From positions 1-57,054 of the IMG/VR virus record IMGVR_UViG_3300046787_000098: a DNA stretch of 57,054 bases, one strand, 5' to 3'. How positions within the stretch are numbered: position 1 is the stretch's first letter; every line of letters starts with the position of its first letter. A program made the translations under genes and the position numbers. Below are positions 3,590 through 34,695 of the stretch, piece by piece. Origin of the DNA: a virus (Duplodnaviria; Caudoviricetes). Under the pieces are notes generated by a model that saw nothing but the letters and a program-made list of their open reading frames with translations, was not told the origin of the DNA and did not search any database.

Positions 3590-3645
3590 AGGCAGGGGAA
3601 AAGTGGGAACCCTTTTCAGAGCGGGGATCAATCCGCTCCTAGCCT
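3590..3645 (-). ncRNA. Three-way-junction RNA in the 5' leader of the initiator gene
   Basis: AGGC/GCCT plus AGG/CCT outer stem enclosing GAGCGG/CCGCTC and GAAAAG/CTTTTC hairpins. Confidence 0.5.
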
Positions 3646-3660
3646 TCATTTCAAATCATA

Positions 3661-3864
3661 TTACACGAAAAACAGATCTGGACGCAAGTCTTTTCTTGTG
3701 ACCAAACCTTGTGTTGCTTTTTCGATTTTGACAGCGAGTGCGGCAGACGCAGTTCTGCGCTCATGGATCAACAGCGACATCCATGTCAGGCTGATGCCCA
3801 GATACTCTGCCATCTCACCTCTTGCGCCCAACGGCTCCGTCGAAAAATACTCCTGCAAGGTCAT
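3661..3864 (-). CDS. Cro/YdaS-like HTH transcriptional regulator
   Basis: EMAEYLGIS...A.LAVKIEKATQGLVTRKDLRPD signature; start at MTLQEYF. Confidence 0.85.
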   Translation of the reverse strand: MTLQEYFSTEPLGARGEMAEYLGISLTWMSLLIHERRTASAALAVKIEKATQGLVTRKDLRPDLFFV

Positions 3865-3928
3865 GTTCTTGTTTTCCAGTTTTATGTACACGTCACAAAA
3901 ACATGTACACGTTTTGCCTTTTTATAGA

Positions 3929-4307
3929 CACGTTAGTTGTTGGTGTCCTGCCTTGATCTTTAACGCAGGTTGACGGTCTCAGGCTTTCGCCACACCAACA
4001 CGGCTGGGTACTGCAAGGCTGGACGACAAGAGCCAGCATTAAGACGTTCAATACCCATGCGTGTAGGTTGTTGGTGGCGACTGGGTTCTCCCGATCCGCA
4101 CGCACAGGTTTCCTATTACGCTACCACCAACACGGCTGGGGACTGGATGCTCTATTACCGAGAGATGCAGGCCAGAGCATTAGGCCACTTTCGGTTTTTT
4201 CCAATCCCCATGCGTGTTAGTGTTGGTGGCTCACATAAAGCAGTGTGCTTTTTAGCATTCGTCCGATTGTTAAATCTGTATTGGCGCTAACCCAATACAC
4301 CACCAAC
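3929..4307 (-). ncRNA. Array of five tandem structured RNA modules with alternating conserved closing stems (A-B-A-B-A)
   Basis: Repeat CACCAACACGGCTGGG(T/G)ACTG at 3993-4013 and 4125-4145; repeat CAAT(A/C)CCCATGCGTGT..TGTTGGTGGC at 4049-4078 and 4202-4230; compensatory T-A/G-C pair; G-U pairs and a GAAA tetraloop on the minus strand. Confidence 0.8.
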
Positions 4308-4313
4308 GGGCGC

Positions 4314-4342
4314 AGTATACATTAACTTTGAATTAAAAGAAA
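4314..4342 (-). promoter_or_regulatory. Leftward promoter driving the RNA array and cro; overlapped by operator
   Basis: -10 TATACT (4314-4319) lies 7 nt upstream of the first array base (4307); weak -35; TTAACtttgaATTAA at 4322-4336. Confidence 0.6.
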
Positions 4343-4366
4343 CCCCACAATTTACTCAGGTTTGTG

Positions 4367-4396
4367 TTGCATTGTTTTTTAACTACGTGTTAAGAT
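4367..4396 (+). promoter_or_regulatory. Rightward sigma70 promoter overlapped by operator
   Basis: TTGCAT-18 bp-(TGn)TAAGAT; perfect TTAACtacgtGTTAA at 4379-4393. Confidence 0.7.
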
Positions 4397-4432
4397 GCGC
4401 CCACGCTGATACAGCGGTTAAGGAGAAATCAA

Positions 4433-4651
4433 ATGGAAAAGCACTTACCCTTCACGACCAAGTCTGGTCTTCGCATTGGCTGTATGTACAGCCCTCCCCA
4501 ACGTAACCACATGAGCGCTGATGCTGAACGCATTCAGATGGCTTTGCTTGGCATCGAGCCTGAGTTCTCTCAGCGTCGTGTTGCTGGCTGGGTTGCGTAC
4601 ATCATCTTTCTGGCAGTGCTCGTTTCAACCTTGGTTGCGTTAGGGGTTTGA
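4433..4651 (+). CDS. Small membrane-anchored early protein
   Basis: AAGGAG RBS; PFTTKSGLRIG motif; C-terminal TM helix. Confidence 0.8.
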   Translation: MEKHLPFTTKSGLRIGCMYSPPQRNHMSADAERIQMALLGIEPEFSQRRVAGWVAYIIFLAVLVSTLVALGV

Positions 4652-4652
4652 G

Positions 4653-4973
4653 ATGACCAGAGAAGACATTATTTGTATGGCGCAAGAGGCAGGATTGATT
4701 GGCAAGCCAATCTTTACAGAAGGTTTAGAACATTTTGCCAACCTTGTTGCGTCTGCCGAACGTAGCGCGTGTATTGATTTACTCATGGGGTTACATGAAG
4801 CCCAAAGTAACAATGGCGCTCACAACTATTACCACTTTGCCTCGAACGCCATCAAGGAGTTAAGAGGCAAAACCATCACCATCAAAACCAAACAATTTAA
4901 ATGCACTGGTTGTCAAGGCAAATGGCATAACTCAGAAGATGCAAAGCATCATTCATGTAAGGATTTCCAATGA
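4653..4973 (+). CDS. Hypothetical protein (EDII.MA...LE.FA.LV..AER.AC family) with C-terminal C2HC-type Zn finger
   Basis: Paralog of 2027-2245; CTGC...HHSC tail. Confidence 0.7.
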   Translation: MTREDIICMAQEAGLIGKPIFTEGLEHFANLVASAERSACIDLLMGLHEAQSNNGAHNYYHFASNAIKELRGKTITIKTKQFKCTGCQGKWHNSEDAKHHSCKDFQ

Positions 4974-5344
4974 ACAAAGAACAATTACTTGACCAATTTG
5001 CAATTGAGGCAATGAAGGCAATTCAACGTCAAGAGGGTATGGTTGCTGTGCATAACGTAGCACTACGCGCTTATGGAATTGCAGAAAAAATGTTGGAATG
5101 CAGGCAAACGGTTTTAGACAATTGGGCATTGAAGGATGCAATTGTTGAAGATGGCATTGAAAAACTTGAATTGACTGTACGGTCTGAGCACTGTTTAAAA
5201 GCTGAGGGCATTTACACCATAACGCAACTGCTCACATACTCTGATATTGGCTTGCTTAGGGTACCTAATTTGGGACGCAAAAGCCTTAGAGAAATTATTG
5301 AGCAATTAGATGCACGTGGATTGAAGTTAAGGGGGCAAGCATGA
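4970..5344 (+). CDS. RNA polymerase alpha-subunit C-terminal-domain-containing protein
   Basis: IEKLELTVRSEHCLKAEGIYTI..L......LLRVPNLGRKSL.EI...L..RGL aligns with the RpoA CTD; unrelated ~60-aa N-terminal domain. Confidence 0.9.
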   Translation: MNKEQLLDQFAIEAMKAIQRQEGMVAVHNVALRAYGIAEKMLECRQTVLDNWALKDAIVEDGIEKLELTVRSEHCLKAEGIYTITQLLTYSDIGLLRVPNLGRKSLREIIEQLDARGLKLRGQA

Positions 5345-10316: not shown

Positions 10317-12005
10317 TTACTCCAGCTCTTTGTCAAGGTTTTTCCGCGCTTCGCTCACATCAGGCTTGCCAGTTGGTCTGGGTTTTGTAGACACTGCGCC
10401 AGCTTTACTGCGAACCCAAGAATCGTAGCTCTTCTCAAGCTTCTTGTATTCAGGCGTGCTGGTGTACTGCAAGTACGTGCCGCGTGGGTTAGCGCCAACA
10501 TAGTCTTTGTAGCCTTCAAGGCGGTCTCTGTCAAAGTCAGCACGCTTGCCAACAAACTGGGCGCGAAGCTTCAAGACCTCTGGGCTGTTAGACACAGTGC
10601 CAGTGCCAGCCGCTCTGGAGATCATGCGTTCACCTTCGGTGATCTGTCCTTGTTTGCTCATGAACATGCGGGTGTAAGCCAACTCGACGTTAGCCATGTC
10701 TGCACCCACCAACTGAACGGCATCGATGTCAGTCTGCTTGATCTTAGGGTCGGCTTGACGGACAGCGTCTTCCCATGCGGGGACAGTCACACCACGAGAG
10801 TTGGCGCGAATGCCTTGGCTGACGACGGTGTTGATCGCGGACAGGAGCCCGGGCTTCTTGAAGATGCCAAAGCCCTTCGGATTCGCACTAACCTTCTCGT
10901 AGATTGAGTTGGCTGAGTTCGACAGGTCACGCGCCATGCTGATTTCAACAGGCGCCTCTTTACGAAGCTCCACCTCAGTCTTAGCAGTACCAACAGCCAG
11001 CTCTTTGTTGCCAGCCGCTTCAGCTTCAGCTTGTTCTGCGGTTGGCCTCTGTGTTGGCGCACCAGCAGGAGCCGCACCAGTAGGTGTACCGCTAGGTGTA
11101 GATGGCGCGGCAGTCTTGGGTTCAGGGCCAAACATAATCATCTTGGCAATCTTGGCGTAATCATCCGCATCTTGCGCGTTGCCAAGCATGGTCGCGTATG
11201 TTGCAGGAATCTCTACACTGCCATAGCCATGGATGTAAGTCTTGGTTGGTGTTGGATCGAAGCCAAACTTCTGACCAGTCGCTAGGTTAACGCCAGATGT
11301 ACCAGCTTGATTGACCTGAATGTTTTTGCGACGATTTTCAAAGATGTCTTTGCGGATCTCGTACGGATCTTTGCCAGCGGCTAGACCTCGTTTGTAATCC
11401 ATCTTTTCTTGCGGAGTAAAGCCTTCAGGTTGTGCAGGGAACAACTGAGTTCCAGCAGGAGCTGATGGAGCTTGAGGAGCCTGAGCCATAGGAGCCGCTT
11501 GAGGGGCCGCTTGAGGAGCCGTAGACAAAGGTGCTTGAATAGCAGGAGCGGCAGGTGCTTGAGCAGTAGGCAAAGCTCCAGCAGGTGCTGAAGGAGCTGG
11601 CTGTGGGGCTGGTTGAGGAGCTATTGCTGGAGGCTTGGTGTAAGGGGAATCTCCGCCCAAGTCCTCGTTGATAGCACGTTGCCGTGCCTCAGCTTGTTTT
11701 GTCTGCATCTCAGTCTGGACGCCTTGCTGAGCCATCTCTAGGCGCATCTTAGCCATCTCCATGATGCGCTTTTCTTCAGCGGCTTGGGCTGGGCCAACAG
11801 AGGCGGCTACGTTGCCTAATGACTCGCCAAAAGAACCAGTCTTTGTAGGCGCAAGAAAGCCTTGAGCCATGGCAAGCATGGTGGGGTCAAACAAACGATT
11901 GCTTCGCTCTTCAAACTTCTCTCGAGCATTCTTTTGAGCGTCGAGATATTCTTGCATGGCATCACTGCCAATGACATTCGTAAAATCTGGTGCTTTAGTT
12001 GCCAT
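10317..12005 (-). CDS. Putative DNA ejection/internal virion protein
   Basis: LAMAQGFLAPT.TG.FGESLG N-terminus, Pro/Ala linkers; position in the ejection cluster. Confidence 0.6.
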   Translation of the reverse strand: MATKAPDFTNVIGSDAMQEYLDAQKNAREKFEERSNRLFDPTMLAMAQGFLAPTKTGSFGESLGNVAASVGPAQAAEEKRIMEMAKMRLEMAQQGVQTEMQTKQAEARQRAINEDLGGDSPYTKPPAIAPQPAPQPAPSAPAGALPTAQAPAAPAIQAPLSTAPQAAPQAAPMAQAPQAPSAPAGTQLFPAQPEGFTPQEKMDYKRGLAAGKDPYEIRKDIFENRRKNIQVNQAGTSGVNLATGQKFGFDPTPTKTYIHGYGSVEIPATYATMLGNAQDADDYAKIAKMIMFGPEPKTAAPSTPSGTPTGAAPAGAPTQRPTAEQAEAEAAGNKELAVGTAKTEVELRKEAPVEISMARDLSNSANSIYEKVSANPKGFGIFKKPGLLSAINTVVSQGIRANSRGVTVPAWEDAVRQADPKIKQTDIDAVQLVGADMANVELAYTRMFMSKQGQITEGERMISRAAGTGTVSNSPEVLKLRAQFVGKRADFDRDRLEGYKDYVGANPRGTYLQYTSTPEYKKLEKSYDSWVRSKAGAVSTKPRPTGKPDVSEARKNLDKELE

Positions 12006-28292: not shown

Positions 28293-31200
28293 TTATCCGT
28301 TTGGTAGAGCCTGTGTTGGAGGCGTGAATGTCGTAGTGTACCGAGCGTACTTTGTAACTCTAAGATCATCAATGTAACCACTGAAATAATTGGCAGTTGA
28401 TCCTGCAACAAGTATTGACGAGCCAATTTGCACATTGGTATCAGTAAAATTATTGCTTCTGGTTCCTGATGCAACGCTACTTCCATTTACATATAGCGTT
28501 ACTGTAGTTCCACTGCGAACTGCCGCAATGTGCGTCCATGTATTTGCCGTAACCGTGCCTCCAGATAGAACGACACCACTAGCATAAAACAAAATGGCAT
28601 TTGATGAATACAGCCCGAAAAAATAACCAGTAGCAGATGCATCGGTCGTTCGCGTATCAAAGACACACTGCGTCCCACTTGATACAGTTGTATAAACCCA
28701 CGCCTCAATTGTGAAATCACCAGTGCCAAATACGCCAGTTAAGTTTGGTCTGCCTATTAGATAGTCACCCGTACCATCAAAATACATCGACGCTGTACCG
28801 TACTTCACCACGCTTGTGCTGATCTGTGCGTTACCAAGTGTCTCCAAGTCATTCATCATGGATTGATCCAAGATGGCTGAGTTGGTGGTAGACAGTAACA
28901 GTGATGTGTTTGCTGTCGGTGTCAGTGGTGCTGTTGGTGGTGTGAACGCAGATGTATAAAGTGCCGTGCCTTTGACAACTCGCAAATCAGCCATATAGCC
29001 AAGTAAATTTGATGGGCTATACAAGGGTGAAACACCTATGTATGGTGTTGGAGTGTCAGAAAAGTTATTGGCTTTTGTAAATGTTGCACTTACTGCGCCA
29101 TTAGAAAACAATCTAACAGTTGTTCCGCTTCTAGTAACAGCAACATGATTCCAAACATTGTAGTTAAGAACAGTTGAGCCTAAGTTAAATCCACCATCGG
29201 TATAGAAATTTAACTGATAACCAACACCAGTTGGATTCATGTTAAAAACAAAACCTGTGCTTGTTGAACCACTTGAACGCAATTCAATAATTACATCATT
29301 ATTGGCATTTACAAGAGGGGTGTTTATCCAACATTCAATAGTAAAGTCACCAGTACCCATAGCAAAAGCTGAATTGCTAGGTGCGGTCAAATAATCACCA
29401 CTACCATCAAAATACCCTGACCCACCAATCACGCTTGTGGAGTAGGCGGTAGAAGTACCAAATGGGTTGAAGCGTTGTACGCTTGGTGAAGTAGTTGGCG
29501 TGATTGTTAAAGCATTGCCACTATTGTCTATAAAACGATTGCTTTGACAGGTTAGCAAACTTGTTCCAGAGATTGCAGTCAGTGGAGTTGTGCTTGGGGT
29601 AAATGCGCTTGTATATACTGCTGTGCCTTTAACCAATCTAAAGTTAGAGACGTACCCGTCAACCACCTGTCCGCCAGCGGCAGAACCAGCCATAATTGAC
29701 ATTGCATTAGCATCCGCCACGGTAAAGTTTAATGTTACTGTTGTTCCAGCGACACCATTTTTATAAAGAATTAAATTGTTTCCGCTTCGCACCATTGCTA
29801 AATGTTGCCAAGAACCAATAGATGCTGTTTGACCAGAAGAAGTGCCAGAAATTCCCCATGTTCCCGTTCCTGACGCAACAAAAAACAAATAATTTCCACT
29901 TGAGTCTATTACTAAAGAGGCCCCCCCAGTAGTTCCATTACTTGTTCTTTTAGACCAAACAGTTTTATAGTTTCCGCCGCTTGGCAAACTTGCTGGGTTA
30001 AGCCAAGTCTCAATTGTGAAATTTCCAGCGCCTACCGAAAGAGCCGCATTATCTGCAACAAGCAAGTAACCATTTCCATCAGAATAGTTTGACCAGTTAG
30101 AACCATAAGGCGTGAATGTGCCTTGGGTTGTATTGCCGTTACGTGTGATGGCAAAGTTGTTCTGACTGCTGTCTTTAAAGCCACTGTTGTTGCCACCACC
30201 GTTGTATTGAGTGGTGAGCAGTTGGGTGTTTGTAATGGCTGTCAGAGGAGCACTTGGGACTGTGAGCGTTGTTCCAACACCGTATGGGTTTGAACCAATA
30301 ACAAAGCGCACGTCGCTCATGTAGCCCGGCACGTTGTCTCCGCCTGAGTACCCGCTTGCAATATACCAACCACCTGTTTGAGCGCCAACACTGCCAGCAA
30401 AAGACGCGGTGTTTTGTCGAGCACCATTCTTATACCCAGCAACAGTAGAGCCAGAGCGAGTCAACGCAATATGAAACCACTGTCCGACAGGAACAGAACC
30501 AAAACTGACTGAAAAGTTAAGCGCTGTGCTTGCTTCGTATGAATAAGCAGTGAGGTTATTGCTTGCGTCAACAAAGAAGCCAAGCTGGTAATAGCCTTGG
30601 TCTTGGCACAGAAAATTCTTGTTTACTAGCGCAGAAGGTACGTAGGCCCAGAACTCGATAGCAAAATCTTGGTTGGTCAGGTTCATTTGAGAGCCATACG
30701 CAACCTTCAAGCTGTCACCAGTCCCATCAAAGTACCCAGAGCCGTATGTCGCCACACTGCTTGGCAAAGCGAATGGTTGTGCGGTGGCTACTTGTGGTGT
30801 GCCATTCACAGTAATGGTGAAGGCATTGACGCTGTTATCAATGAAGCGGTTGTTTTGACTTGTCAACAAAGAAACTGTTCCTGATGAAACAGTGGTTGTC
30901 AGTGGTGTCGTGCTTGGCGTGAAGGTTGTCGTATAAAGAGCGCCCCCTTTTGTAATCCTTGCATTGGATATGTACCCAATCCAAATTTCACCAGAGGTTG
31001 TAGAGCCACCAATTTTGGGGCCAGTAGTACCACCATCACTCTGAGTAGATGAGTTTGTAAATGAGCCACCAGAAACACCATTGATCCAGTATGTCCATGT
31101 GTTTGTGCTACGTGTTAACGCAACATGATTCCATGCATTCAAAGTCAATGAATTTGTAGATGCGCCTACAAATGCAGTATTTGTATAGACGTTTAATGTT

Positions 31201-31721
31201 GTAGCACCAGACTGGCTAAGAAGTGCAAAACCATTTGCGCCGCCAGTTGTGCGTATTTCAATGATTGGTCGAGTACCAGAGGTGGATGTTGGATAGACCC
31301 AAGCCTCAACAGTAAAGTCACCAGTACCAAAGTTGAAAACAGTATTTGCTGGCGCGTTCAAATATTGACCGCTTGTACCATCAAAGTAGTTGCTGTAGTA
31401 GCCAGTGCCTAAATATGGGCTGAAGTTATTAGACCGTGCATCACCGTTGATGGTGACGTTAAAGTTGTTTGTCGATGCGTCAGTATTGAACGCTGTCACA
31501 GTAGGCGTAGCGCCGCCACCAGAGCCGTTATTAGCGCCAGCAGAGCCATCACCATGCAACAACATGGTCACGTAGTTGAACTGCGGATCACGCACGAAAG
31601 GCCATGTGCTCGTGCCATTGGCTTGCATTTGCTGTTGGAGCGTCCACGCCCCACTTGCCGTCAAGCTAGTTGGCGTATTCGCAGTGGCTGATAGACGACT
31701 GCCTTTGTATCGCATCGACAT
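28293..31721 (-). CDS. Tail fibre / receptor-binding protein with five LamG (concanavalin A-like) repeats
   Basis: Five YFDG.GD...GDFT(I/V)E.W...W.H.A..R..G....Y.NG...GY.S..R..KG type units. Confidence 0.85.
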   Translation of the reverse strand: MSMRYKGSRLSATANTPTSLTASGAWTLQQQMQANGTSTWPFVRDPQFNYVTMLLHGDGSAGANNGSGGGATPTVTAFNTDASTNNFNVTINGDARSNNFSPYLGTGYYSNYFDGTSGQYLNAPANTVFNFGTGDFTVEAWVYPTSTSGTRPIIEIRTTGGANGFALLSQSGATTLNVYTNTAFVGASTNSLTLNAWNHVALTRSTNTWTYWINGVSGGSFTNSSTQSDGGTTGPKIGGSTTSGEIWIGYISNARITKGGALYTTTFTPSTTPLTTTVSSGTVSLLTSQNNRFIDNSVNAFTITVNGTPQVATAQPFALPSSVATYGSGYFDGTGDSLKVAYGSQMNLTNQDFAIEFWAYVPSALVNKNFLCQDQGYYQLGFFVDASNNLTAYSYEASTALNFSVSFGSVPVGQWFHIALTRSGSTVAGYKNGARQNTASFAGSVGAQTGGWYIASGYSGGDNVPGYMSDVRFVIGSNPYGVGTTLTVPSAPLTAITNTQLLTTQYNGGGNNSGFKDSSQNNFAITRNGNTTQGTFTPYGSNWSNYSDGNGYLLVADNAALSVGAGNFTIETWLNPASLPSGGNYKTVWSKRTSNGTTGGASLVIDSSGNYLFFVASGTGTWGISGTSSGQTASIGSWQHLAMVRSGNNLILYKNGVAGTTVTLNFTVADANAMSIMAGSAAGGQVVDGYVSNFRLVKGTAVYTSAFTPSTTPLTAISGTSLLTCQSNRFIDNSGNALTITPTTSPSVQRFNPFGTSTAYSTSVIGGSGYFDGSGDYLTAPSNSAFAMGTGDFTIECWINTPLVNANNDVIIELRSSGSTSTGFVFNMNPTGVGYQLNFYTDGGFNLGSTVLNYNVWNHVAVTRSGTTVRLFSNGAVSATFTKANNFSDTPTPYIGVSPLYSPSNLLGYMADLRVVKGTALYTSAFTPPTAPLTPTANTSLLLSTTNSAILDQSMMNDLETLGNAQISTSVVKYGTASMYFDGTGDYLIGRPNLTGVFGTGDFTIEAWVYTTVSSGTQCVFDTRTTDASATGYFFGLYSSNAILFYASGVVLSGGTVTANTWTHIAAVRSGTTVTLYVNGSSVASGTRSNNFTDTNVQIGSSILVAGSTANYFSGYIDDLRVTKYARYTTTFTPPTQALPNG

Positions 31722-31734
31722 AGGATGCTCCTAA

Positions 31735-32157
31735 TTATGGTGATGTGATTGCTTCAAATGATGCTGTGAAGTTTATCGCATTCGCGGTTCCAACGGTCAC
31801 ACCAACTGACTGATATTGAGTGACGTAGAACGATGTTGTCTTGTCCACAATGATCAGTGAAGAGTTAGCAGGAACGCTGATCTGGTATGCAATGTAGTAG
31901 GGTGTACCGCTTGCAAAAACAGAGTTGTTCGATACCGCAACGGTCACAGCAACAGCAGAGGATGTGACGTTAGATGCAACGATGTTGTTGATCTTGTTCA
32001 CAGTACCTGACGCTGGGTTCAGACCGGGCAACGAGACAGTACCGCTCGTGCTTGGGTCAGCGTATGTCCATGTTGCAACGGCTGTGGTCACGGATGGCGA
32101 AATGTACGCCGTGGTTCCATTGATGACCGTTACGTTAACGATATTTGGGTTTGCCAT
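31735..32157 (-). CDS. Virion structural protein (fibre-associated)
   Basis: MANPNIVNVT.I.G.T...YIAYQISVPANSSL family pattern. Confidence 0.65.
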   Translation of the reverse strand: MANPNIVNVTVINGTTAYISPSVTTAVATWTYADPSTSGTVSLPGLNPASGTVNKINNIVASNVTSSAVAVTVAVSNNSVFASGTPYYIAYQISVPANSSLIIVDKTTSFYVTQYQSVGVTVGTANAINFTASFEAITSP

Positions 32158-32167
32158 TTATAGCTCC

Positions 32168-32548
32168 TTAGAATCCGAAAATCATCGCCATCGCAATGGC
32201 TTTACCAGTTGAAATACCACTTGCCGCTGGCGCTTGGGATACCCAAGTTGTGCCATTAGAGGTCAAGACGTTGCCTGAAGTGCTTGGCGCAACAGCTTGC
32301 AAAGCAGAGGTTCCGTTACCCAACAGCACGTTGTTTGCTGTCAGCGTTGTGGATCCTGTACCACCAGCAGAAACTGGCGTTGTCTTCCACGCAATGACTT
32401 GCACCGCATTAGAGCTGTCTTTGTAAAAGAGCTTACCATCGGCTGTGTTAATTGCCAACTCACCAGCGGCTAAATTGCCTGCTGTGGGCGCGTTTGTTGT
32501 TGTCGCGCTGTAGTAAAGCTGAATGGGTGTGTAGCCTGTTTGTGCCAT
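32168..32548 (-). CDS. Short fibre protein with Mtd/hyaluronidase-type N-terminal domain
   Basis: P..GNL.AGELAINTADGKLFYKD; GGTG repeat; ends AIAMAMIFGF. Confidence 0.7.
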   Translation of the reverse strand: MAQTGYTPIQLYYSATTTNAPTAGNLAAGELAINTADGKLFYKDSSNAVQVIAWKTTPVSAGGTGSTTLTANNVLLGNGTSALQAVAPSTSGNVLTSNGTTWVSQAPAASGISTGKAIAMAMIFGF

Positions 32549-34695
32549 TAGAAGGTTCCTCCTGAGATGCCTGACCATACGGGTGTCGAAGAACCCGCCG
32601 ATGTTAATACTTGACCTGCCGTTCCGTTGGCAATAAAGCCTGTCGCTCCAGCACCAGTTTGATACGCAATTTGACTTGCCGCACCGCCTGCAATGTTTGT
32701 CGCAGTTGTTGCTGTTGTGGCTGTCGTAGCAGTTGTAGCCGCACCCACAGTGATTGATGCAGGGTTGGTGTACTGAGGCGCAGTTCCGTTCGATGTAAGG
32801 ATATACGTCGAAGCACCTACAGTTAGCTTGTCAAGGGTTGTTGTGGTGTTTGCAAACAGCAAGTCACCAACAGCAAATGACGTGATGCCAGTGCCACCAA
32901 CTGTAGGAGCAACAGAACCTGAAGTGATCTGTGATCCAGCAATTGCAATAGAAACATCAGCCGCCGCAGTCAGTTGACCTTGGGCATTGACTGAGTATGT
33001 TGGAACAGTAGCCGCCCCACCGTAGGAGCCAGACGTAACCGCTGTGTTGGCGATATTGAACGTGTAGGCTGGCGACTCATTCAGACCAGTGCCAGCAGAG
33101 TACGTCAAAGGCGCACCGAACTGTTGGAAAACAATTGCTGTTGTGCCGACAACAATAGGTAGTGGTGTCTGCTGTACCCATGAGGTATTTGCTAGGGTAG
33201 AGCCTGCGGTGATCAGGAAGAAGTCACCAGCATCAATCTGATCTACGCCTACGCCTGAAGAATCAAAGTCAGTCGCACGGGTCAGGATGTACGGAGCACC
33301 AGCAGAACCTGTCTGAGTGACCGTGTACACGCCATTGTTAGCTTGCGCGGCTTCGTTCTTAATCAGGACACGGTTGGTTGCCGCAACTGCTACACCGTCA
33401 ATGCTTAAAGCACCATTAGCATTCGCAGTCAACGTCGCACCAACACCAGACGAGCCGTTGTTGTACGTATTAGCCGCTAGAGCTGTAGTCGTTGCCAATC
33501 GGCATGACTGGTGGAAGTTAATACCTGAAGCAATCGCATCAGCATAGGTTTTGTTGACAATATCGTTGCCAGTTGTTGGAGCGGTGGTGATCGTTCCAGA
33601 GGTCATGGCGACCGATGTGAACGCACCAGTAGATGGCGTTGTCGCACCAACTGAAGTGTTGTCAACAGTGCTACCAGTAACCGTAGCGCTAGATACTGAA
33701 GCGCCGCTGATTGTTCCGCCAGTGATCGCCACAGCATTAGCGTCTTGCGTGGACATAGTCCCCAAGCCAGTGATCTGTGTGTTGGCGATTGCAATAGGCG
33801 TCTCAGCCATTGCTGTCAACTGACCTTGAGCGTTAACTGTGGCTGTCAGGGTCTTGGATGCCGCACCGTATGAACCAGCAGTCACAGCGGTATCGGCAAT
33901 TGAGATTGTGCCTGTGGAGGTGATCGGGCCACCTGTCAGACCAGTGCCAGTCAGAATAGATGTAACGCCAGAACCAGAAGCCAATGACGTCCAAGCACCG
34001 TTCAAATAAGCCTCAAGCAACGCAATGGTTGTGTTGTAGCGAAGCGTACCGTTGGTTGGGGATACTGCGCGGTCACCAGTGGTTCCAGAGGGTAGGACTA
34101 CGCCAGCGGAGCCGGGCAACGCTGGGTTATCCGTAATCGCAAATGTTGGGTTACCAGCAGATCCATCACCGTTCGTGACTGTGATCTGACCAGACGTCCC
34201 AAGCAGGTCACGACCAGTAACAGCCGTACCACTAGAAGTCAGAGCCAGAACACCCGTACCAGACAGCGCGGCAATAGATGCGGCAACGCCTGTTAGCTGG
34301 AAGGTTGGGTTACCAGACACGCCATCAGGGTTGGAGATGCTTAAACCGCTTCCAGACGTCTGAAATGTACGTCCTGTTACCGCGCCACCAGTTTTGGCAA
34401 TCATGCCGTTGGAGGACGATTCAAGGCTTCCTGAGACGCCATTTAGGGTGATCTGAAGGGTAGACTGAGCGCCACCATCAACCAAACCTACACCAGTACC
34501 GCCAGACAGCGCTCGGCTGTTGGCAAGTGTTGGCTCTTGGTTGAGCGTCAGGAACGTCTGTGTTTGGTTAGGCGATGATGAGATCGCGGACGTGGTTGTC
34601 TGTACGGTCTGACCATTTTGAACGATAGGAACGAGCTCCGTGCCCGTAATCGCGCCAGCCTGTGGGAGTTGGGTAATCGTTACTTGTGCGGACAT
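32548..34695 (-). CDS. Tail fibre shaft protein
   Basis: Repeated VTAGSYG...VNAQGQLT; RVLIKNE.....NGVY....LTRATDFD; ends GGTF. Confidence 0.8.
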   Translation of the reverse strand: MSAQVTITQLPQAGAITGTELVPIVQNGQTVQTTTSAISSSPNQTQTFLTLNQEPTLANSRALSGGTGVGLVDGGAQSTLQITLNGVSGSLESSSNGMIAKTGGAVTGRTFQTSGSGLSISNPDGVSGNPTFQLTGVAASIAALSGTGVLALTSSGTAVTGRDLLGTSGQITVTNGDGSAGNPTFAITDNPALPGSAGVVLPSGTTGDRAVSPTNGTLRYNTTIALLEAYLNGAWTSLASGSGVTSILTGTGLTGGPITSTGTISIADTAVTAGSYGAASKTLTATVNAQGQLTAMAETPIAIANTQITGLGTMSTQDANAVAITGGTISGASVSSATVTGSTVDNTSVGATTPSTGAFTSVAMTSGTITTAPTTGNDIVNKTYADAIASGINFHQSCRLATTTALAANTYNNGSSGVGATLTANANGALSIDGVAVAATNRVLIKNEAAQANNGVYTVTQTGSAGAPYILTRATDFDSSGVGVDQIDAGDFFLITAGSTLANTSWVQQTPLPIVVGTTAIVFQQFGAPLTYSAGTGLNESPAYTFNIANTAVTSGSYGGAATVPTYSVNAQGQLTAAADVSIAIAGSQITSGSVAPTVGGTGITSFAVGDLLFANTTTTLDKLTVGASTYILTSNGTAPQYTNPASITVGAATTATTATTATTATNIAGGAASQIAYQTGAGATGFIANGTAGQVLTSAGSSTPVWSGISGGTF

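What the first reader, a model, noticed from the sequence alone, without database searches (positions are those of the whole stretch)
3929..4307. Promoter-driven A-B-A-B-A array of structured RNA modules with fixed closing stems and variable folded cargo
Seen in sequence, read on the minus strand 5'->3' from 4307. Five abutting hairpin domains alternate between two closing stems. Type A, (U)GUUGGUG(GU)...(GC)CACCAAC(A), occurs at 4307-4221, 4132-4069 and 4000-3938. Type B, ACACG-CA-UGGG(G/U)AUUG...CAGU(C/A)CCCA-GC-CGUGU, occurs at 4217-4130 and 4064-3998. The two B stems differ by a compensatory change (G-C vs U-A) and keep the same 2x2 CA/GC internal loop and U-G wobble. Each B 3' arm overlaps the next A 5' arm (GUGUUGGUG). 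The roughly 40-70 nt interiors differ in sequence but each folds: GGC-GAAA-GCC and CCUGC/GCAGG; GCUGG/CCAGC; UAGG-AAA-CCUG; AUGCUCU/AGAGCAU; GUAUUGG/CCAAUAC and AAAGCA/UGCUUU. A -10 box (TATACT) sits 7 nt upstream of the first base. Inference: this is a polycistronic small-RNA cassette in which constant stems act as processing or protein-binding handles, interiors are the variable payload (antisense regulators, decoys or anti-defence RNAs), and the DNA direct repeats allow modules to be gained, lost or swapped. The closest precedents I know are P1 C4 and P4 CI RNAs, which are processed from leader transcripts; I cannot match it to a named family from memory.
Basis: partly seen in the sequence, partly recalled or inferred. 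Interest (0 to 1): 0.88.

Follow-up and report, generated by a model that had tools for sequence, protein, structure and literature searches.

The report
Swappable small-RNA cassettes before phage cro
An uncultured freshwater phage carries, right after its early promoter, five folded small-RNA modules held in two constant stems, one of them a tRNA-type stem, that many uncultured phages share and swap; what the RNAs do is unknown.

Summary
Window 4307-3938 (minus strand) holds five abutting hairpin modules, A-B-A-B-A, with two constant closing stems.

It is a 450-nt insertion in the 5' UTR of a Cro-like gene. At least seven sequence-checked close relatives have about 21 nt there; others have one module or A-B-A.

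The stems are widespread.

The B helix covaries: 132 of 177 deviations stay paired, and G.U outnumbers A.C 78 to 17, which marks the minus strand as the RNA strand.

The A stem is a tRNA-type acceptor stem. In other contigs Rfam's tRNA model hits four A modules, and canonical tRNAs abut arrays.

Four of the five window cargoes recur elsewhere beside different partners.

Rfam has no family for the window's modules, and six literature searches found no description.

Best reading: a tRNA-operon-like chassis that expresses, probably processes, and exchanges small structured RNAs. Transcription, processing and cargo function are not shown.

This scan had already noted the same kind of cassettes on other phage DNA.

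The parts
4314..4319 (-). -10-like hexamer TATACT of the early promoter that drives the Cro-like operon
   Evidence: Sequence read. The block ...TTAATTYAAAGTTAATGTATACT is conserved in relatives where the cro start follows about 21 nt later. The simple consensus scan did not call it because the -35 is weak, so its promoter role is inferred.
4221..4307 (-). Module A1: A scaffold (GUUGGUG...CACCAAC+A) carrying the 'type-1' cargo (hairpin with loop GUUAGCG; hairpin CAC-UGCUUUAU-GUG)
   Evidence: MFE -29 kcal/mol, z -3.39. The same cargo was found in 119+ viral contigs: 117 distinct modules with 94 distinct closing helices. Closest copies are L046 (85%) and L368 (88%).
4130..4217 (-). Module B1: B scaffold (ACACG-CA-UGGGGAUUG ... 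CAGUCCCCA-GC-CGUGU) with a cargo not seen elsewhere
   Evidence: MFE -36 kcal/mol, z -4.24. The arms match the family consensus. No homologue of the interior was found among the loci held.
4069..4131 (-). Module A2: A scaffold with its own cargo
   Evidence: z -3.58. The cargo is 91-96% identical to modules in L395 and L317, which have different neighbours.
3998..4064 (-). Module B2: B scaffold with a compensatory G-C to U-A change
   Evidence: z -2.94. The cargo is 91-93% identical in L342 and L087. In L087 it is followed by an A module of another cargo family.
3938..3999 (-). Module A3: A scaffold with GGC-GAAA-GCC and CCUGC/GCAGG hairpins
   Evidence: z -3.62. The cargo is 94% identical in L066 and L327, next to other partners.
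3865..3937 (-). Tail of the insertion: three copies of AACGTGT(C/A)(T/C)AT spaced 19 and 21 nt apart, then a weak ribosome-binding region
   Evidence: copies at 3884-3894, 3903-3913, 3924-3934. No homologue was found in the loci held. Its role as an operator or second promoter is only guessed.
3661..3864 (-). Cro/YdaS-like HTH gene, the first gene of the operon that the array precedes
   Evidence: Pfam YdaS_toxin at 1.5e-12 and phrog_35 'transcriptional repressor' at 1.1e-08. It is followed by a DUF1376/O-like replication gene at 3558-2809.

Best explanation
The stretch is a co-transcribed array of five small structured RNAs built like a tRNA operon.

Type A modules are closed by a 7-bp tRNA acceptor-type stem followed by a discriminator-like A. 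Type B modules are hairpins whose closing helix is made from the 3' trailer of the upstream A unit and the 5' leader of the downstream one.

The array sits as an accessory insertion between the early promoter and the ribosome-binding site of a Cro-like gene. It would therefore be made at once on infection, from +1.

The constant stems serve as a shared chassis in three ways:
1. They give folded, end-protected RNAs.
2. They most likely direct host tRNA-maturation enzymes, and possibly RNase III on the B helix, to cut the modules apart and away from the cro mRNA. RNase P would cut at the first G of each A stem, and 3' trimming would follow the discriminator.
3. As DNA, they are short identical sequences at which phages exchange modules by recombination.

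What is shown: the structure, the strand, the insertion, the spread and the shuffling. What is inferred: transcription from this promoter, the processing enzymes and any role of the cargoes. I take the cargoes to be accessory host-directed or anti-defence RNAs because they turn over fast between close relatives.
For: Anatomy and folding.

Insertion:
- All 19 O-protein relatives whose locus spans the junction (of 36 fetched) align up to window 4314 or 4301 and resume at about 3852-3870.
- I read nine of them. Seven have only about 21 nt (TGCCGCCAAGGAAGAACAATG-like) between TATACT and the ATG. L121 has one A module. L124 has A-B-A (L125 has the same coordinates).
- In every case the first stem starts 6-7 nt after TATACT.

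Spread:
- Three seed scans of viral contigs each stopped at 119 rows.
- There are 93 B-A units, 89 distinct, in the first set.
- There are 186 arrays in 179 of 317 viral loci.

B helix (107 distinct arm pairs):
- 132 of 177 deviations in the 5' arm stay paired with their own partner, whereas only 36 would pair with the consensus partner.
- Double-sided Watson-Crick changes occur at nine positions.
- The canonical-pair fraction is 0.962, against 0.875 +/- 0.0035 when partner arms are permuted (maximum 0.887 in 500 permutations).

Strand:
- G.U 78 against A.C 17 in B, leaving out the consensus wobble.
- G.U 55 against A.C 19 in type-1 closing helices found with a strand-symmetric finder.

tRNA link:
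- Rfam's tRNA model hits four A modules full-length (35-45 bits). Acceptor, D and T arms are kept and 42-83 nt stands in place of the anticodon arm.
- 23 of 186 arrays have a canonical tRNA within 300 nt, 22 of them on the same strand. Nine have a tRNA-Met 9-10 nt after the last A.
- B starts right after the end of tRNA-Thr in L105 and right after the CCA of tRNA-Asn in MW202484.1.
- A B module in L053 is itself called tRNA-like by ARAGORN.

Stand-alone unit: L196 has a B-A unit with a T-run terminator on this strand.

Shuffling:
- Window cargoes A1, A2, B2 and A3 have 85-96% identical copies in other contigs beside other partners.
- 852 module instances fall into 543 cargo families, and 10 families occur in both scaffolds.

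No coding support: four ORFs overlapping the array have no Pfam hit and only two PHROG hits at E 0.03-0.07.
Against: - There is no direct evidence of transcription or of discrete products. The four RNA-library runs laid were assembled contigs, which cannot show ends, strand or level. An 89-nt contig matching exactly A1 (depth 87.7) may end where it does only because the conserved stems branch the assembly graph.
- The consensus scan did not call the promoter.
- Folding energy does not tell the strands apart: z -4.23 against -3.77 for the array, and similar values per module.
- The window's own A modules have no D or T arm and get no Rfam tRNA hit even at E up to 10. Their tRNA likeness rests on the acceptor stem and on relatives.
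- No canonical tRNA with this acceptor sequence was found among 36 ARAGORN tRNAs in the loci.
- The two outer pairs of the B helix are often unpaired (position 2 is mismatched in 32 of 122).
- The CA/GC loop closes to Watson-Crick pairs in divergent variants, so it is not a universal feature.
- Only 20 of 186 arrays have a strong -10 just upstream.
The 5' arms were chosen by best complementarity, which inflates pairing somewhat.
- My attempt to count covariation of the 7-bp A stem was swamped by false matches and gives no support.
Confidence: 0.6

Rival explanations
1. The array is a cis-acting leader that controls the Cro/replication operon. It could be a processive antiterminator of the HK022 put kind, a 5'-terminal stabiliser of the mRNA, or a translational switch. 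It would not be a source of separate small RNAs.
For: It lies in the 5' UTR and begins about at +1. The type-1 motif (A1) usually sits 6-8 nt after a -10 box and is often followed within 25-45 nt by a ribosome-binding site and the first gene of an early operon. putL likewise lies just downstream of PL (passages of PMC9378689). No terminator-like site lies between the array and cro.
Against: Close relatives with the same promoter, the same Cro-like gene and the same downstream genes lack the array entirely. The same modules occur inside tRNA clusters. They also occur as a stand-alone unit ending in a terminator (L196). The first genes that follow type-1 are unrelated to each other (clusters of 25, 11, 7, 5, 4 and 4). 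put RNA is described as two stem-loops of about 70 nt, not a stem-closed multi-hairpin module. No put sequence was compared.
Confidence: 0.15
2. One or more cargoes are immunity-type antisense RNAs like P1/P7 C4 or P4 CI. They would be cut out of the leader by RNase P and would pair with a site in the same or a rival phage's transcript to block expression.
For: They share the general logic of a promoter-proximal, stem-closed small RNA with exposed conserved loops, an acceptor-like closing stem, and a position upstream of early regulatory genes. One 14-nt perfect complement of the A1 hairpin (4294-4281) lies in the minus-strand mRNA at 10485-10498.
Against: No Rfam C4-type hit appears, even at E up to 10. 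The 14-mer is expected about 0.15 times by chance and was not checked in relatives. It also involves the paired stem as well as the loop. Type-1 loops are the same in phages with unrelated downstream genes, which fits a common host target better than phage-specific targets.
Confidence: 0.1
3. The conserved arms act as DNA, for example as recombination hot spots (the A arm GTTGGTGG resembles a Chi-type octamer, as recalled), protein-binding sites or origin repeats. The RNA folds would then be incidental.
For: The arms are inverted repeats next to a replication module. GTTGGTGG is enriched in the whole phage, 13 against 2.85 expected, with 9 copies outside the array. Module exchange between phages has its break points in the arms.
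Against: There is a strong strand asymmetry of wobble pairs (G.U 78 against A.C 17 in B, 55 against 19 in type-1 closing helices). Compensatory changes keep the pairing, not the sequence. Arrays are co-oriented with tRNA genes in 22 of 23 cases. The array is absent from relatives with the same replication genes. A recombination role of the DNA is compatible with, and part of, the best explanation.
Confidence: 0.07
4. The array is a decaying remnant of a phage tRNA gene cluster with no present function.
For: It has an acceptor-type stem without D, T or anticodon arms in the window. tRNA-like intermediates exist elsewhere. Presence is patchy among relatives.
Against: The cargoes are conserved as families across contigs, with covariation. 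Type-1 has 94 distinct closing helices around the same core, and its hairpin pair covaries with 2 exceptions in 117. The arms are near-invariant in more than a hundred contigs. Four of the five window modules have 85-96% identical copies in other phages in new combinations. That pattern indicates selection and transfer, not decay.
Confidence: 0.05

Closest known systems
Phage T4 stable RNAs rnaC (species 1) and rnaD (species 2) in the T4 tRNA gene cluster
   Same: They are small, stable, non-coding phage RNAs of unknown function that lie head to tail with tRNA genes on the same strand (annotation of AF158101). rnaC carries a T-arm-like CCGGGTTCGAATCCCGG. In relatives of this array the modules likewise abut tRNAs.
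   Different: By eye, the 366 nt read contain neither the A nor the B arm sequences. T4 has two fixed RNAs, not a constant-stem/variable-cargo series. The window's array is not in a tRNA cluster but in the leader of a Cro-like operon, and the window has no tRNA gene.
P1/P7 C4 antisense RNA and P4 CI RNA (RNase P-processed immunity RNAs; their properties are recalled, not read here)
   Same: These are small stem-closed RNAs cut from the leader of an early or immunity operon.
   Different: No Rfam C4-family match appears at any threshold tried. No convincing target complementarity was found. This is an array of different cargoes in shared scaffolds, found in many unrelated operons.
RNase III processing signals of phage T7 (R1.1 and the minimal uR1.1) and leader-trailer stems of rRNA operons
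   Same: The B helix is a long helix interrupted by an internal loop that brackets an RNA to be released. It carries adjacent U-A and U.G pairs like the canonical distal box UA/UG (passages of PMC1540722; positions 15 and 14).
   Different: The proximal-box preferences (A-U or U-A at positions 2 to 4) are not met by the G-C run of the consensus. The upper stem is 9 bp, against the 11 bp given as the minimum between cleavage site and loop. The host is not E. coli. Cleavage is untested.
tRNA punctuation and tRNA-like processing elements: plant mitochondrial t-elements (abstract of PMC1920247 in the listing), mascRNA of MALAT1 (abstract of PMC8457004), and the tRNA-miRNA units of murine gammaherpesvirus 68 (recalled)
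   Same: These are tRNA-shaped elements without decoding function. They are used to define RNA ends through the tRNA-maturation enzymes and are placed next to other RNAs on one transcript.
   Different: They belong to eukaryotic or organellar systems. None is a bacterial-virus array with two alternating scaffolds and a large exchangeable cargo repertoire.
Spacer-derived small RNAs of bacterial tRNA operons, such as the 3' external transcribed spacer of the glyW-cysT-leuZ transcript that acts as an sRNA sponge (recalled; only search listings seen)
   Same: These are functional small RNAs released from the spacer or trailer of a tRNA precursor as a by-product of tRNA processing. That is the position the B modules occupy between tRNA-like units.
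   Different: The E. coli example is a single unstructured sponge that acts with Hfq. B modules are stem-closed, carry diverse folded interiors and are phage-borne.

Membership tests
tRNA (Rfam RF00005) | 7-bp acceptor stem followed by a discriminator base | tested here: met
   GUUGGUG/CACCAAC plus A closes all three A modules of the window. The same stem is aligned as the acceptor stem by the Rfam tRNA model in four A modules of other contigs.
tRNA (Rfam RF00005) | D arm, T arm and anticodon arm; score at or above the Rfam gathering threshold | tested here: not met
   There is no tRNA hit in the window at gathering or at E up to 10 over 3600-4700, and ARAGORN finds no gene. Four relatives keep D and T arms but have 42-83 nt in place of the anticodon arm.
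C4 antisense RNA family / P4 CI RNA | Match to the Rfam covariance models of the family | tested here: not met
   There are 0 matches at gathering in the whole window. Only freshwater-2 (19.8 bits against 49.9) and msr (17.5 against 52) appear at E up to 10, and both are on the plus strand.
C4 antisense RNA family / P4 CI RNA | Loops complementary to target sites in the same operon's transcript | tested here: inconclusive
   One search found one 14-mer (4294-4281 against 10485-10498, about 0.15 expected by chance), one 13-mer and one 12-mer. None was checked in relatives.
C4 antisense RNA family / P4 CI RNA | 5' end made by RNase P | not testable with these tools
   This needs end mapping in wild-type and rnpA strains, or in vitro cleavage.
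RNase III processing signal of the T7 R1.1 type | Distal box UA/UG | tested here: met
   B positions 15 (U-A in 103 of 122) and 14 (U.G in 81 of 122), compared with the description in PMC1540722. The strand orientation of the box could not be checked because figures are not held.
RNase III processing signal of the T7 R1.1 type | Proximal box (G-C, then A-U/U-A, A-U, A-U/U-A) and at least 11 bp between cleavage site and loop | tested here: not met
   The consensus has G-C at B positions 9-12, and the upper stem is 9 bp. The requirements were read. They are E. coli rules and the host here is unknown.
RNase III processing signal of the T7 R1.1 type | Cleavage by RNase III | not testable with these tools
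   This needs an enzyme assay or an rnc mutant.
Stable RNAs of phage tRNA clusters (T4 rnaC/rnaD type) | Non-coding RNA gene head to tail with tRNA genes on one strand | tested here: inconclusive
   The feature is met in relatives: 22 of 186 arrays have a same-strand tRNA within 300 nt, and tRNA-Asn CCA is followed at once by B in MW202484.1. It is not met in the window, which has no tRNA.
HK022 put antiterminator RNA | About 70-nt two-stem RNA just downstream of an early promoter that binds the RNA polymerase beta' zinc-binding domain | not tested
   Only the position is shared. No put sequence was compared, and binding cannot be tested here.

The most novel reading that the evidence does not exclude
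Phages of lakes and rivers share an 'RNA cassette system'. A universal tRNA-type shell (A) and a leader-trailer clamp helix (B) form a plug-and-play chassis. The chassis lets hundreds of unrelated small structured RNAs be expressed from any strong promoter or tRNA operon, cut out by the host's own tRNA-maturation enzymes, and passed between phages by recombination at the constant stems. It would be an RNA counterpart of gene cassettes.

In this phage five such RNAs are fired from +1 of the early promoter as host-takeover or anti-defence agents. The first of them (type-1) is a new tRNA-elbow mimic held together by a loop-loop contact (AGC/GCU, replaced by GGC/GCC in a sister type).
Probability: 0.3. 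Interest if true: 0.9.

Novelty: new variant of a known kind. Interest (0 to 1): 0.76.

Why it matters
If the reading holds, phages have a large hidden repertoire of small structured RNAs. The RNAs ride on two constant scaffolds and are exchanged like cassettes.

This would turn the sixty-year-old puzzle of the phage T4 and T5 'stable RNAs of unknown function' into a general phenomenon that can be tested. It would point to the tRNA-maturation machinery as the release mechanism. It would also give a ready list of candidate RNA effectors against host defences or host physiology.

The constant stems would be useful as natural, portable expression and processing tags. The type-1 motif, present at the start of early operons in more than a hundred uncultured phages, is a strong candidate for a new RNA family in its own right.

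Tried and rejected
Rfam. The whole window at gathering gave nothing. The region 3600-4700 at E up to 10 gave two sub-threshold plus-strand hits that I take as chance.

BLAST against deposited records.
- Window 3600-4700 found nothing in deposited phages or in complete E. coli genomes.
- The A1 module found nothing in phages at E up to 10.
- The 35-nt B1/A2 junction gave five weak hits. Four lie in coding genes and look like chance. One is real: MW202484.1, an uncultured virus.

Bacterial genomes.
My script flagged three of them. Two are convincing B-A units (L196, L250) and one (L176) is a chance match. The rest are what chance predicts for a 16-mer in 596 billion bases.
- The type-1 pattern was found in 2 of 401 sampled genomes of the order of G001.

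Folding energy as a strand test was uninformative.

The A-stem covariation script used too loose an anchor. It returned 1421 mostly spurious arm pairs, and I draw nothing from it.

Coding readings. Four ORFs across the array have no family support.

RNA evidence. The only RNA-library runs offered were assembled contigs with small shares. Laying four of them showed relatives with other module contents and an 89-nt contig equal to A1. It showed no ends, strand or level, so I use it only as a weak hint.

T5 lead from earlier notes. The stretch of AY587007 that I fetched (30000-33500) lists tRNAs and ORFs but no 'stable RNA' feature, so I could not check that comparison.

Other readings considered.
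- HK022 put: only passages of PMC9378689 were read and no sequence comparison was made.
- A CRISPR-like or ToxI-like repeat reading is rejected on anatomy. The arms alternate in orientation, the interiors are folded and of unequal length, and no nuclease gene lies beside the array.

Literature. Six full-text searches and passages of three papers (PMC9378689, PMC1540722, PMC13096335) turned up no description of these scaffolds. Subscription journals and supplementary files were not visible and could hold one.

Rows dropped.
- Genome-contig loci L157-L276 were left out of the family counts (L196 and L250 were kept).
- 29 reverse-strand images of B were set aside.
- Arm pairs with fewer than 9 or 10 Watson-Crick matches of 13 were dropped.
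- Modules closer than the flank length to a contig end were dropped.
Full report
**What is there.** The window is a whole IMG/VR virus record of 57,054 bases. Read on the minus strand from 4307 to 3938, it holds five abutting hairpin modules:
- A1: 4307-4221
- B1: 4217-4130
- A2: 4131-4069
- B2: 4064-3998
- A3: 3999-3938

A modules are closed by GUUGGUG...CACCAAC followed by an A. B modules are closed by ACACG-CA-UGGGG(G/U)AUUG...CAGU(C/A)CCCA-GC-CGUGU. The last two bases of each B 3' arm are the first two of the next A 5' arm. The repeat finder recovers the arms.

Each module folds on its own with its closing stem (z -2.9 to -4.2). The array as a whole reaches -145.3 kcal/mol (z -4.23). The other strand folds about as well, so energy alone does not pick the strand.

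**Surroundings.** Downstream on the same strand lie several features:
- a 73-nt tail with three AACGTGT(C/A)(T/C)AT repeats
- a Cro/YdaS-like HTH gene (3864-3661)
- a DUF1376/O-like replication gene (3558-2809)
- further on, a RusA-like resolvase

On the other strand, from 4433, runs a divergent early operon. It includes an RNA polymerase alpha-CTD-like protein and a PD-(D/E)XK exonuclease. The rest of the record is a virion module. The window has no tRNA gene and no Rfam match. Four ORFs that cross the array have no family support.

**The array is an insertion in a 5' UTR.** I fetched 36 loci through the O-like protein and compared them with the window by blastn.

All 19 relatives whose locus spans the junction align up to window 4314 or 4301 and again from about 3852-3870. 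I read nine of them:
- In L129, L132, L122, L126, L136, L137 and L139, TATACT is followed after about 21 nt (a ribosome-binding site) by the start codon of the Cro-like gene.
- L121 has one A module there.
- L124 has A-B-A. L125 has the same coordinates.

L046 has B followed by an 85% identical copy of A1, ahead of the same Cro-like protein. The window has 450 nt at this place.

In every case read, the first stem starts 6-7 nt after the -10 box, which is about +1. The consensus scan did not call this promoter because its -35 is weak. However, in relatives without the array it is the only place left for the promoter of the Cro-like operon. No terminator-like site lies in or after the array.

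So the array is an accessory, variable insert that should be transcribed as the first part of the early transcript. The transcription itself is inferred.

**The stems are a widespread scaffold.**
Nearly all show the full order B5'...B3'|A5'...A3', with 93 units, 89 of them distinct.
- The B 5' arm as seed, and the A1 cargo as seed, each again reached 119 rows.
- With strict arm patterns I counted 186 arrays in 179 of 317 viral loci. They range from a single B to B-A-B-A-B-A.
- Among 50,697 deposited phage records, only one uncultured spring-water virus (MW202484.1) showed the junction at BLAST sensitivity.
- Among bacterial genomes, the junction scan gave two convincing units out of 120 rows. 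The A1-cargo pattern was found in 2 of 401 sampled genomes of one order.
- DNA runs holding the stretch are recorded as freshwater, river, aquatic or aquaculture metagenomes.

**RNA-level structure and strand.** For the B helix I collected 107 distinct arm pairs.
- Of 177 deviations from the consensus in the 5' arm, 132 remain paired with their own partner. Only 36 would pair with the consensus partner.
- Double-sided Watson-Crick changes occur at nine positions, for example 25 at position 10 and 21 at position 4.
- 96.2% of cells are canonical pairs, against 87.5 +/- 0.35% when the 3' arms are dealt out anew (maximum 88.7% in 500 permutations).

Wobble pairs are strongly one-sided: G.U 78 against A.C 17, leaving out the consensus U.G. 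That fits an RNA read from the minus strand, not a DNA cruciform.

Three caveats apply. The two outermost pairs are often unpaired (position 2 in 32 of 122), which frees the shared GU for the A stem. The CA/GC loop becomes paired in divergent variants. The 5' arms were picked by best complementarity. My script for the short A stem failed. For A-type closing stems I rely on the type-1 set below.

**The first module is a member of a large motif family.** The A1 cargo has a hairpin with loop GUUAGCG, a variable middle, and the hairpin C-N-C UGCUUUAU G-N'-G. It was found in 117 distinct modules with 94 different closing helices.

The closing helices include the A scaffold, the B scaffold (L291, L288, L333) and many unrelated stems. 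N and N' covary with 2 exceptions in 117. Closing helices show G.U 55 against A.C 19 with a strand-symmetric finder.

The module typically starts 6-8 nt after a -10 box. It is followed either by another module or by a ribosome-binding site and the first gene of an early operon. Those first genes are unrelated, forming clusters of 25, 11, 7, 5, 4 and 4 among the 98 of 124 modules for which my crude rule found an ORF.

The two conserved loops could pair. AGC/GCU occurs in this type and GGC/GCC in a sister type, with no mixed combination among the clean cases of 136. That would give a cloverleaf-like topology with an elbow contact. This rests on one covarying position and is inference.

**Link to tRNA.**
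- In other contigs Rfam's tRNA model matches four A modules end to end (35-45 bits). GUUGGUG/CACCAAC is aligned as the acceptor stem. U8, the D arm and the T arm are kept, and 42-83 nt replaces the anticodon arm.
- 23 of 186 arrays have a canonical tRNA within 300 nt, 22 of them on the same strand. Nine have a tRNA-Met 9-10 nt after the last A.
- B starts immediately after tRNA-Thr in L105 and immediately after the CCA of tRNA-Asn in MW202484.1.
- One B module (L053) is itself drawn as a tRNA-like cloverleaf by ARAGORN.
- The inner B stem, UGGGG...CCCCA-G, has the end pattern of a tRNA-Gln acceptor, as in T4 tRNA-Gln TGGGAAT...ATTCCCAG. Divergent B variants lose it, so I do not lean on this.

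Against the tRNA link: the window's own A modules have no D or T arm. None of the 36 canonical tRNAs in the loci has this acceptor sequence.

**Cassette behaviour.** Four of the five window cargoes have 85-96% identical copies in other contigs:
- A1 in L046 and L368
- A2 in L395 and L317
- B2 in L342 and L087
- A3 in L066 and L327

In the contigs where my module map shows a neighbour, the neighbour differs. L395, for example, is A(A2-type)-B(other)-A(other), and L087 is B-A-B(B2-type)-A(other). B1's interior was not seen elsewhere.

In all, 852 module instances fell into 543 cargo families (390 singletons), and 10 families occur in both scaffolds. That regex map is noisy and should be read as an order of magnitude. 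RNA-library contigs of relatives also show module-sized replacements at the arm boundaries.

**How it most likely works.** The picture is of a tRNA operon turned into a carrier.
- A units are tRNA shells.
- B units are the spacers between them, stabilised by pairing of trailer and leader.
- The host's tRNA-maturation enzymes would cut at the 5' end of each A stem and trim after the discriminator. This would release each A and each B as an end-paired, exonuclease-resistant RNA and free the cro mRNA.
- RNase III may add cuts in B. The helix carries a UA/UG pair like the canonical distal box. It fails the E. coli proximal-box and length rules as I read them in passages of PMC1540722.

All enzyme assignments are inference. 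Because close relatives differ in module number and content while keeping the same promoter and genes, the cargoes look like accessory, fast-turning functions. Decoys or inhibitors aimed at the host are my guess, not a result.

**Rivals.**
- A cis-acting leader (put-like antitermination, mRNA stabiliser) fits the position. It does not fit the absence of the array from relatives or the presence of modules in tRNA clusters and in a stand-alone unit with a terminator (L196).
- An immunity antisense RNA of the C4/CI kind is not excluded for single cargoes. It has no Rfam or target support.
- A purely DNA-level role is contradicted by the wobble asymmetry and the compensatory changes, although recombination at the arms is part of my reading.
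- Decay of a tRNA cluster is contradicted by the conservation and transfer of cargoes.

**Known relatives and novelty.** The nearest described things are:
- the T4 stable RNAs rnaC and rnaD beside the T4 tRNAs
- RNase P-processed phage immunity RNAs (recalled)
- RNase III bracketing stems
- tRNA-like punctuation elements of organelles and eukaryotic viruses
- spacer-derived sRNAs of tRNA operons

None has two alternating constant scaffolds with a large exchangeable cargo set. Six literature searches and Rfam 15 gave no description. Supplements and subscription journals were not visible.

This scan had already noted the same kind of cassettes in other phage windows, including this same stretch. 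I used those notes as leads only and tested what I could.

I file the array as a new variant of a known kind: phage stable small RNAs tied to tRNA processing. The bolder reading, a general RNA cassette system, remains open.

Noticed in passing
window 4970-5344 (+): A 124-aa early protein matches the C-terminal domain of the RNA polymerase alpha subunit (Pfam RNA_pol_A_CTD, 9.9e-19). A phage-borne alpha-CTD copy in the divergent early operon could act on host transcription.
   Followed up: no
window 3884-3934 (-): Three copies of AACGTGT(C/A)(T/C)AT lie 19 and 21 nt apart between the last module and the Cro-like start codon. They are the only cluster of this motif in the window, and this tail has no homologue in the loci held. 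They may be operators or a second promoter.
   Followed up: partly
window, whole; e.g. 10706, 16577, 24123, 28236, 28881, 28933, 32894, 39074, 39648: The octamer GTTGGTGG (the A 5' arm plus one base) occurs 13 times against 2.85 expected, 9 of them outside the array and on both strands. It differs by one base from the E. coli Chi octamer as I recall it. Codon usage in glycine/valine-rich virion genes is an ordinary alternative.
   Followed up: partly
window 4294-4281 (-) and 10485-10498 (-): There is a 14-nt perfect complementarity between the A1 hairpin (stem and GUUAGCG loop) and the mRNA of the 562-aa ORF at 10317-12005. About 0.15 such matches are expected by chance.
   Followed up: no
L109, L111, L032, L056, L061, L066, L068, L073, L083: A tRNA-Met gene follows the last A module after 9-10 nt in nine arrays. 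In one search, the flank after the type-1 module in L111, L061 and L073 contains CGCGGAG/CGTGGAG, and CGCGGAG starts 4 of the 36 ARAGORN tRNAs. This recalls an initiator tRNA start, but I did not tie those tRNAs to these loci.
   Followed up: no
L053 6068-6140 (-): A B module is drawn by ARAGORN as a tRNA-like cloverleaf with an eight-membered anticodon loop and a four-base 'anticodon' caag. The same cargo occurs in B modules of L035 and L081.
   Followed up: no
L444 (MW202484.1 41503-41762, running over the record's end): A deposited 'complete genome' of an uncultured podovirus carries promoter-like sequence, tRNA-Asn, then B (with a compensatory UGAGG/CCUCA stem) and the start of an A module. 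No RNA feature is annotated there.
   Followed up: partly
G002:C188:17814-18375 (L441, L442; also L250): A bacterial assembly holds two type-1 modules about 500 nt apart. One is in a B-A unit just upstream of a small ORF that begins like a glutaredoxin/NrdH protein.
   Followed up: no
window 4220-4307, run X15: In one metatranscriptome assembly an 89-nt contig of depth 87.7 covers exactly module A1, with 7 differences and 1 gap. Neighbouring contigs have depths of 30-39. It may be a discrete abundant RNA of a relative, or an effect of assembly at repeated stems.
   Followed up: partly
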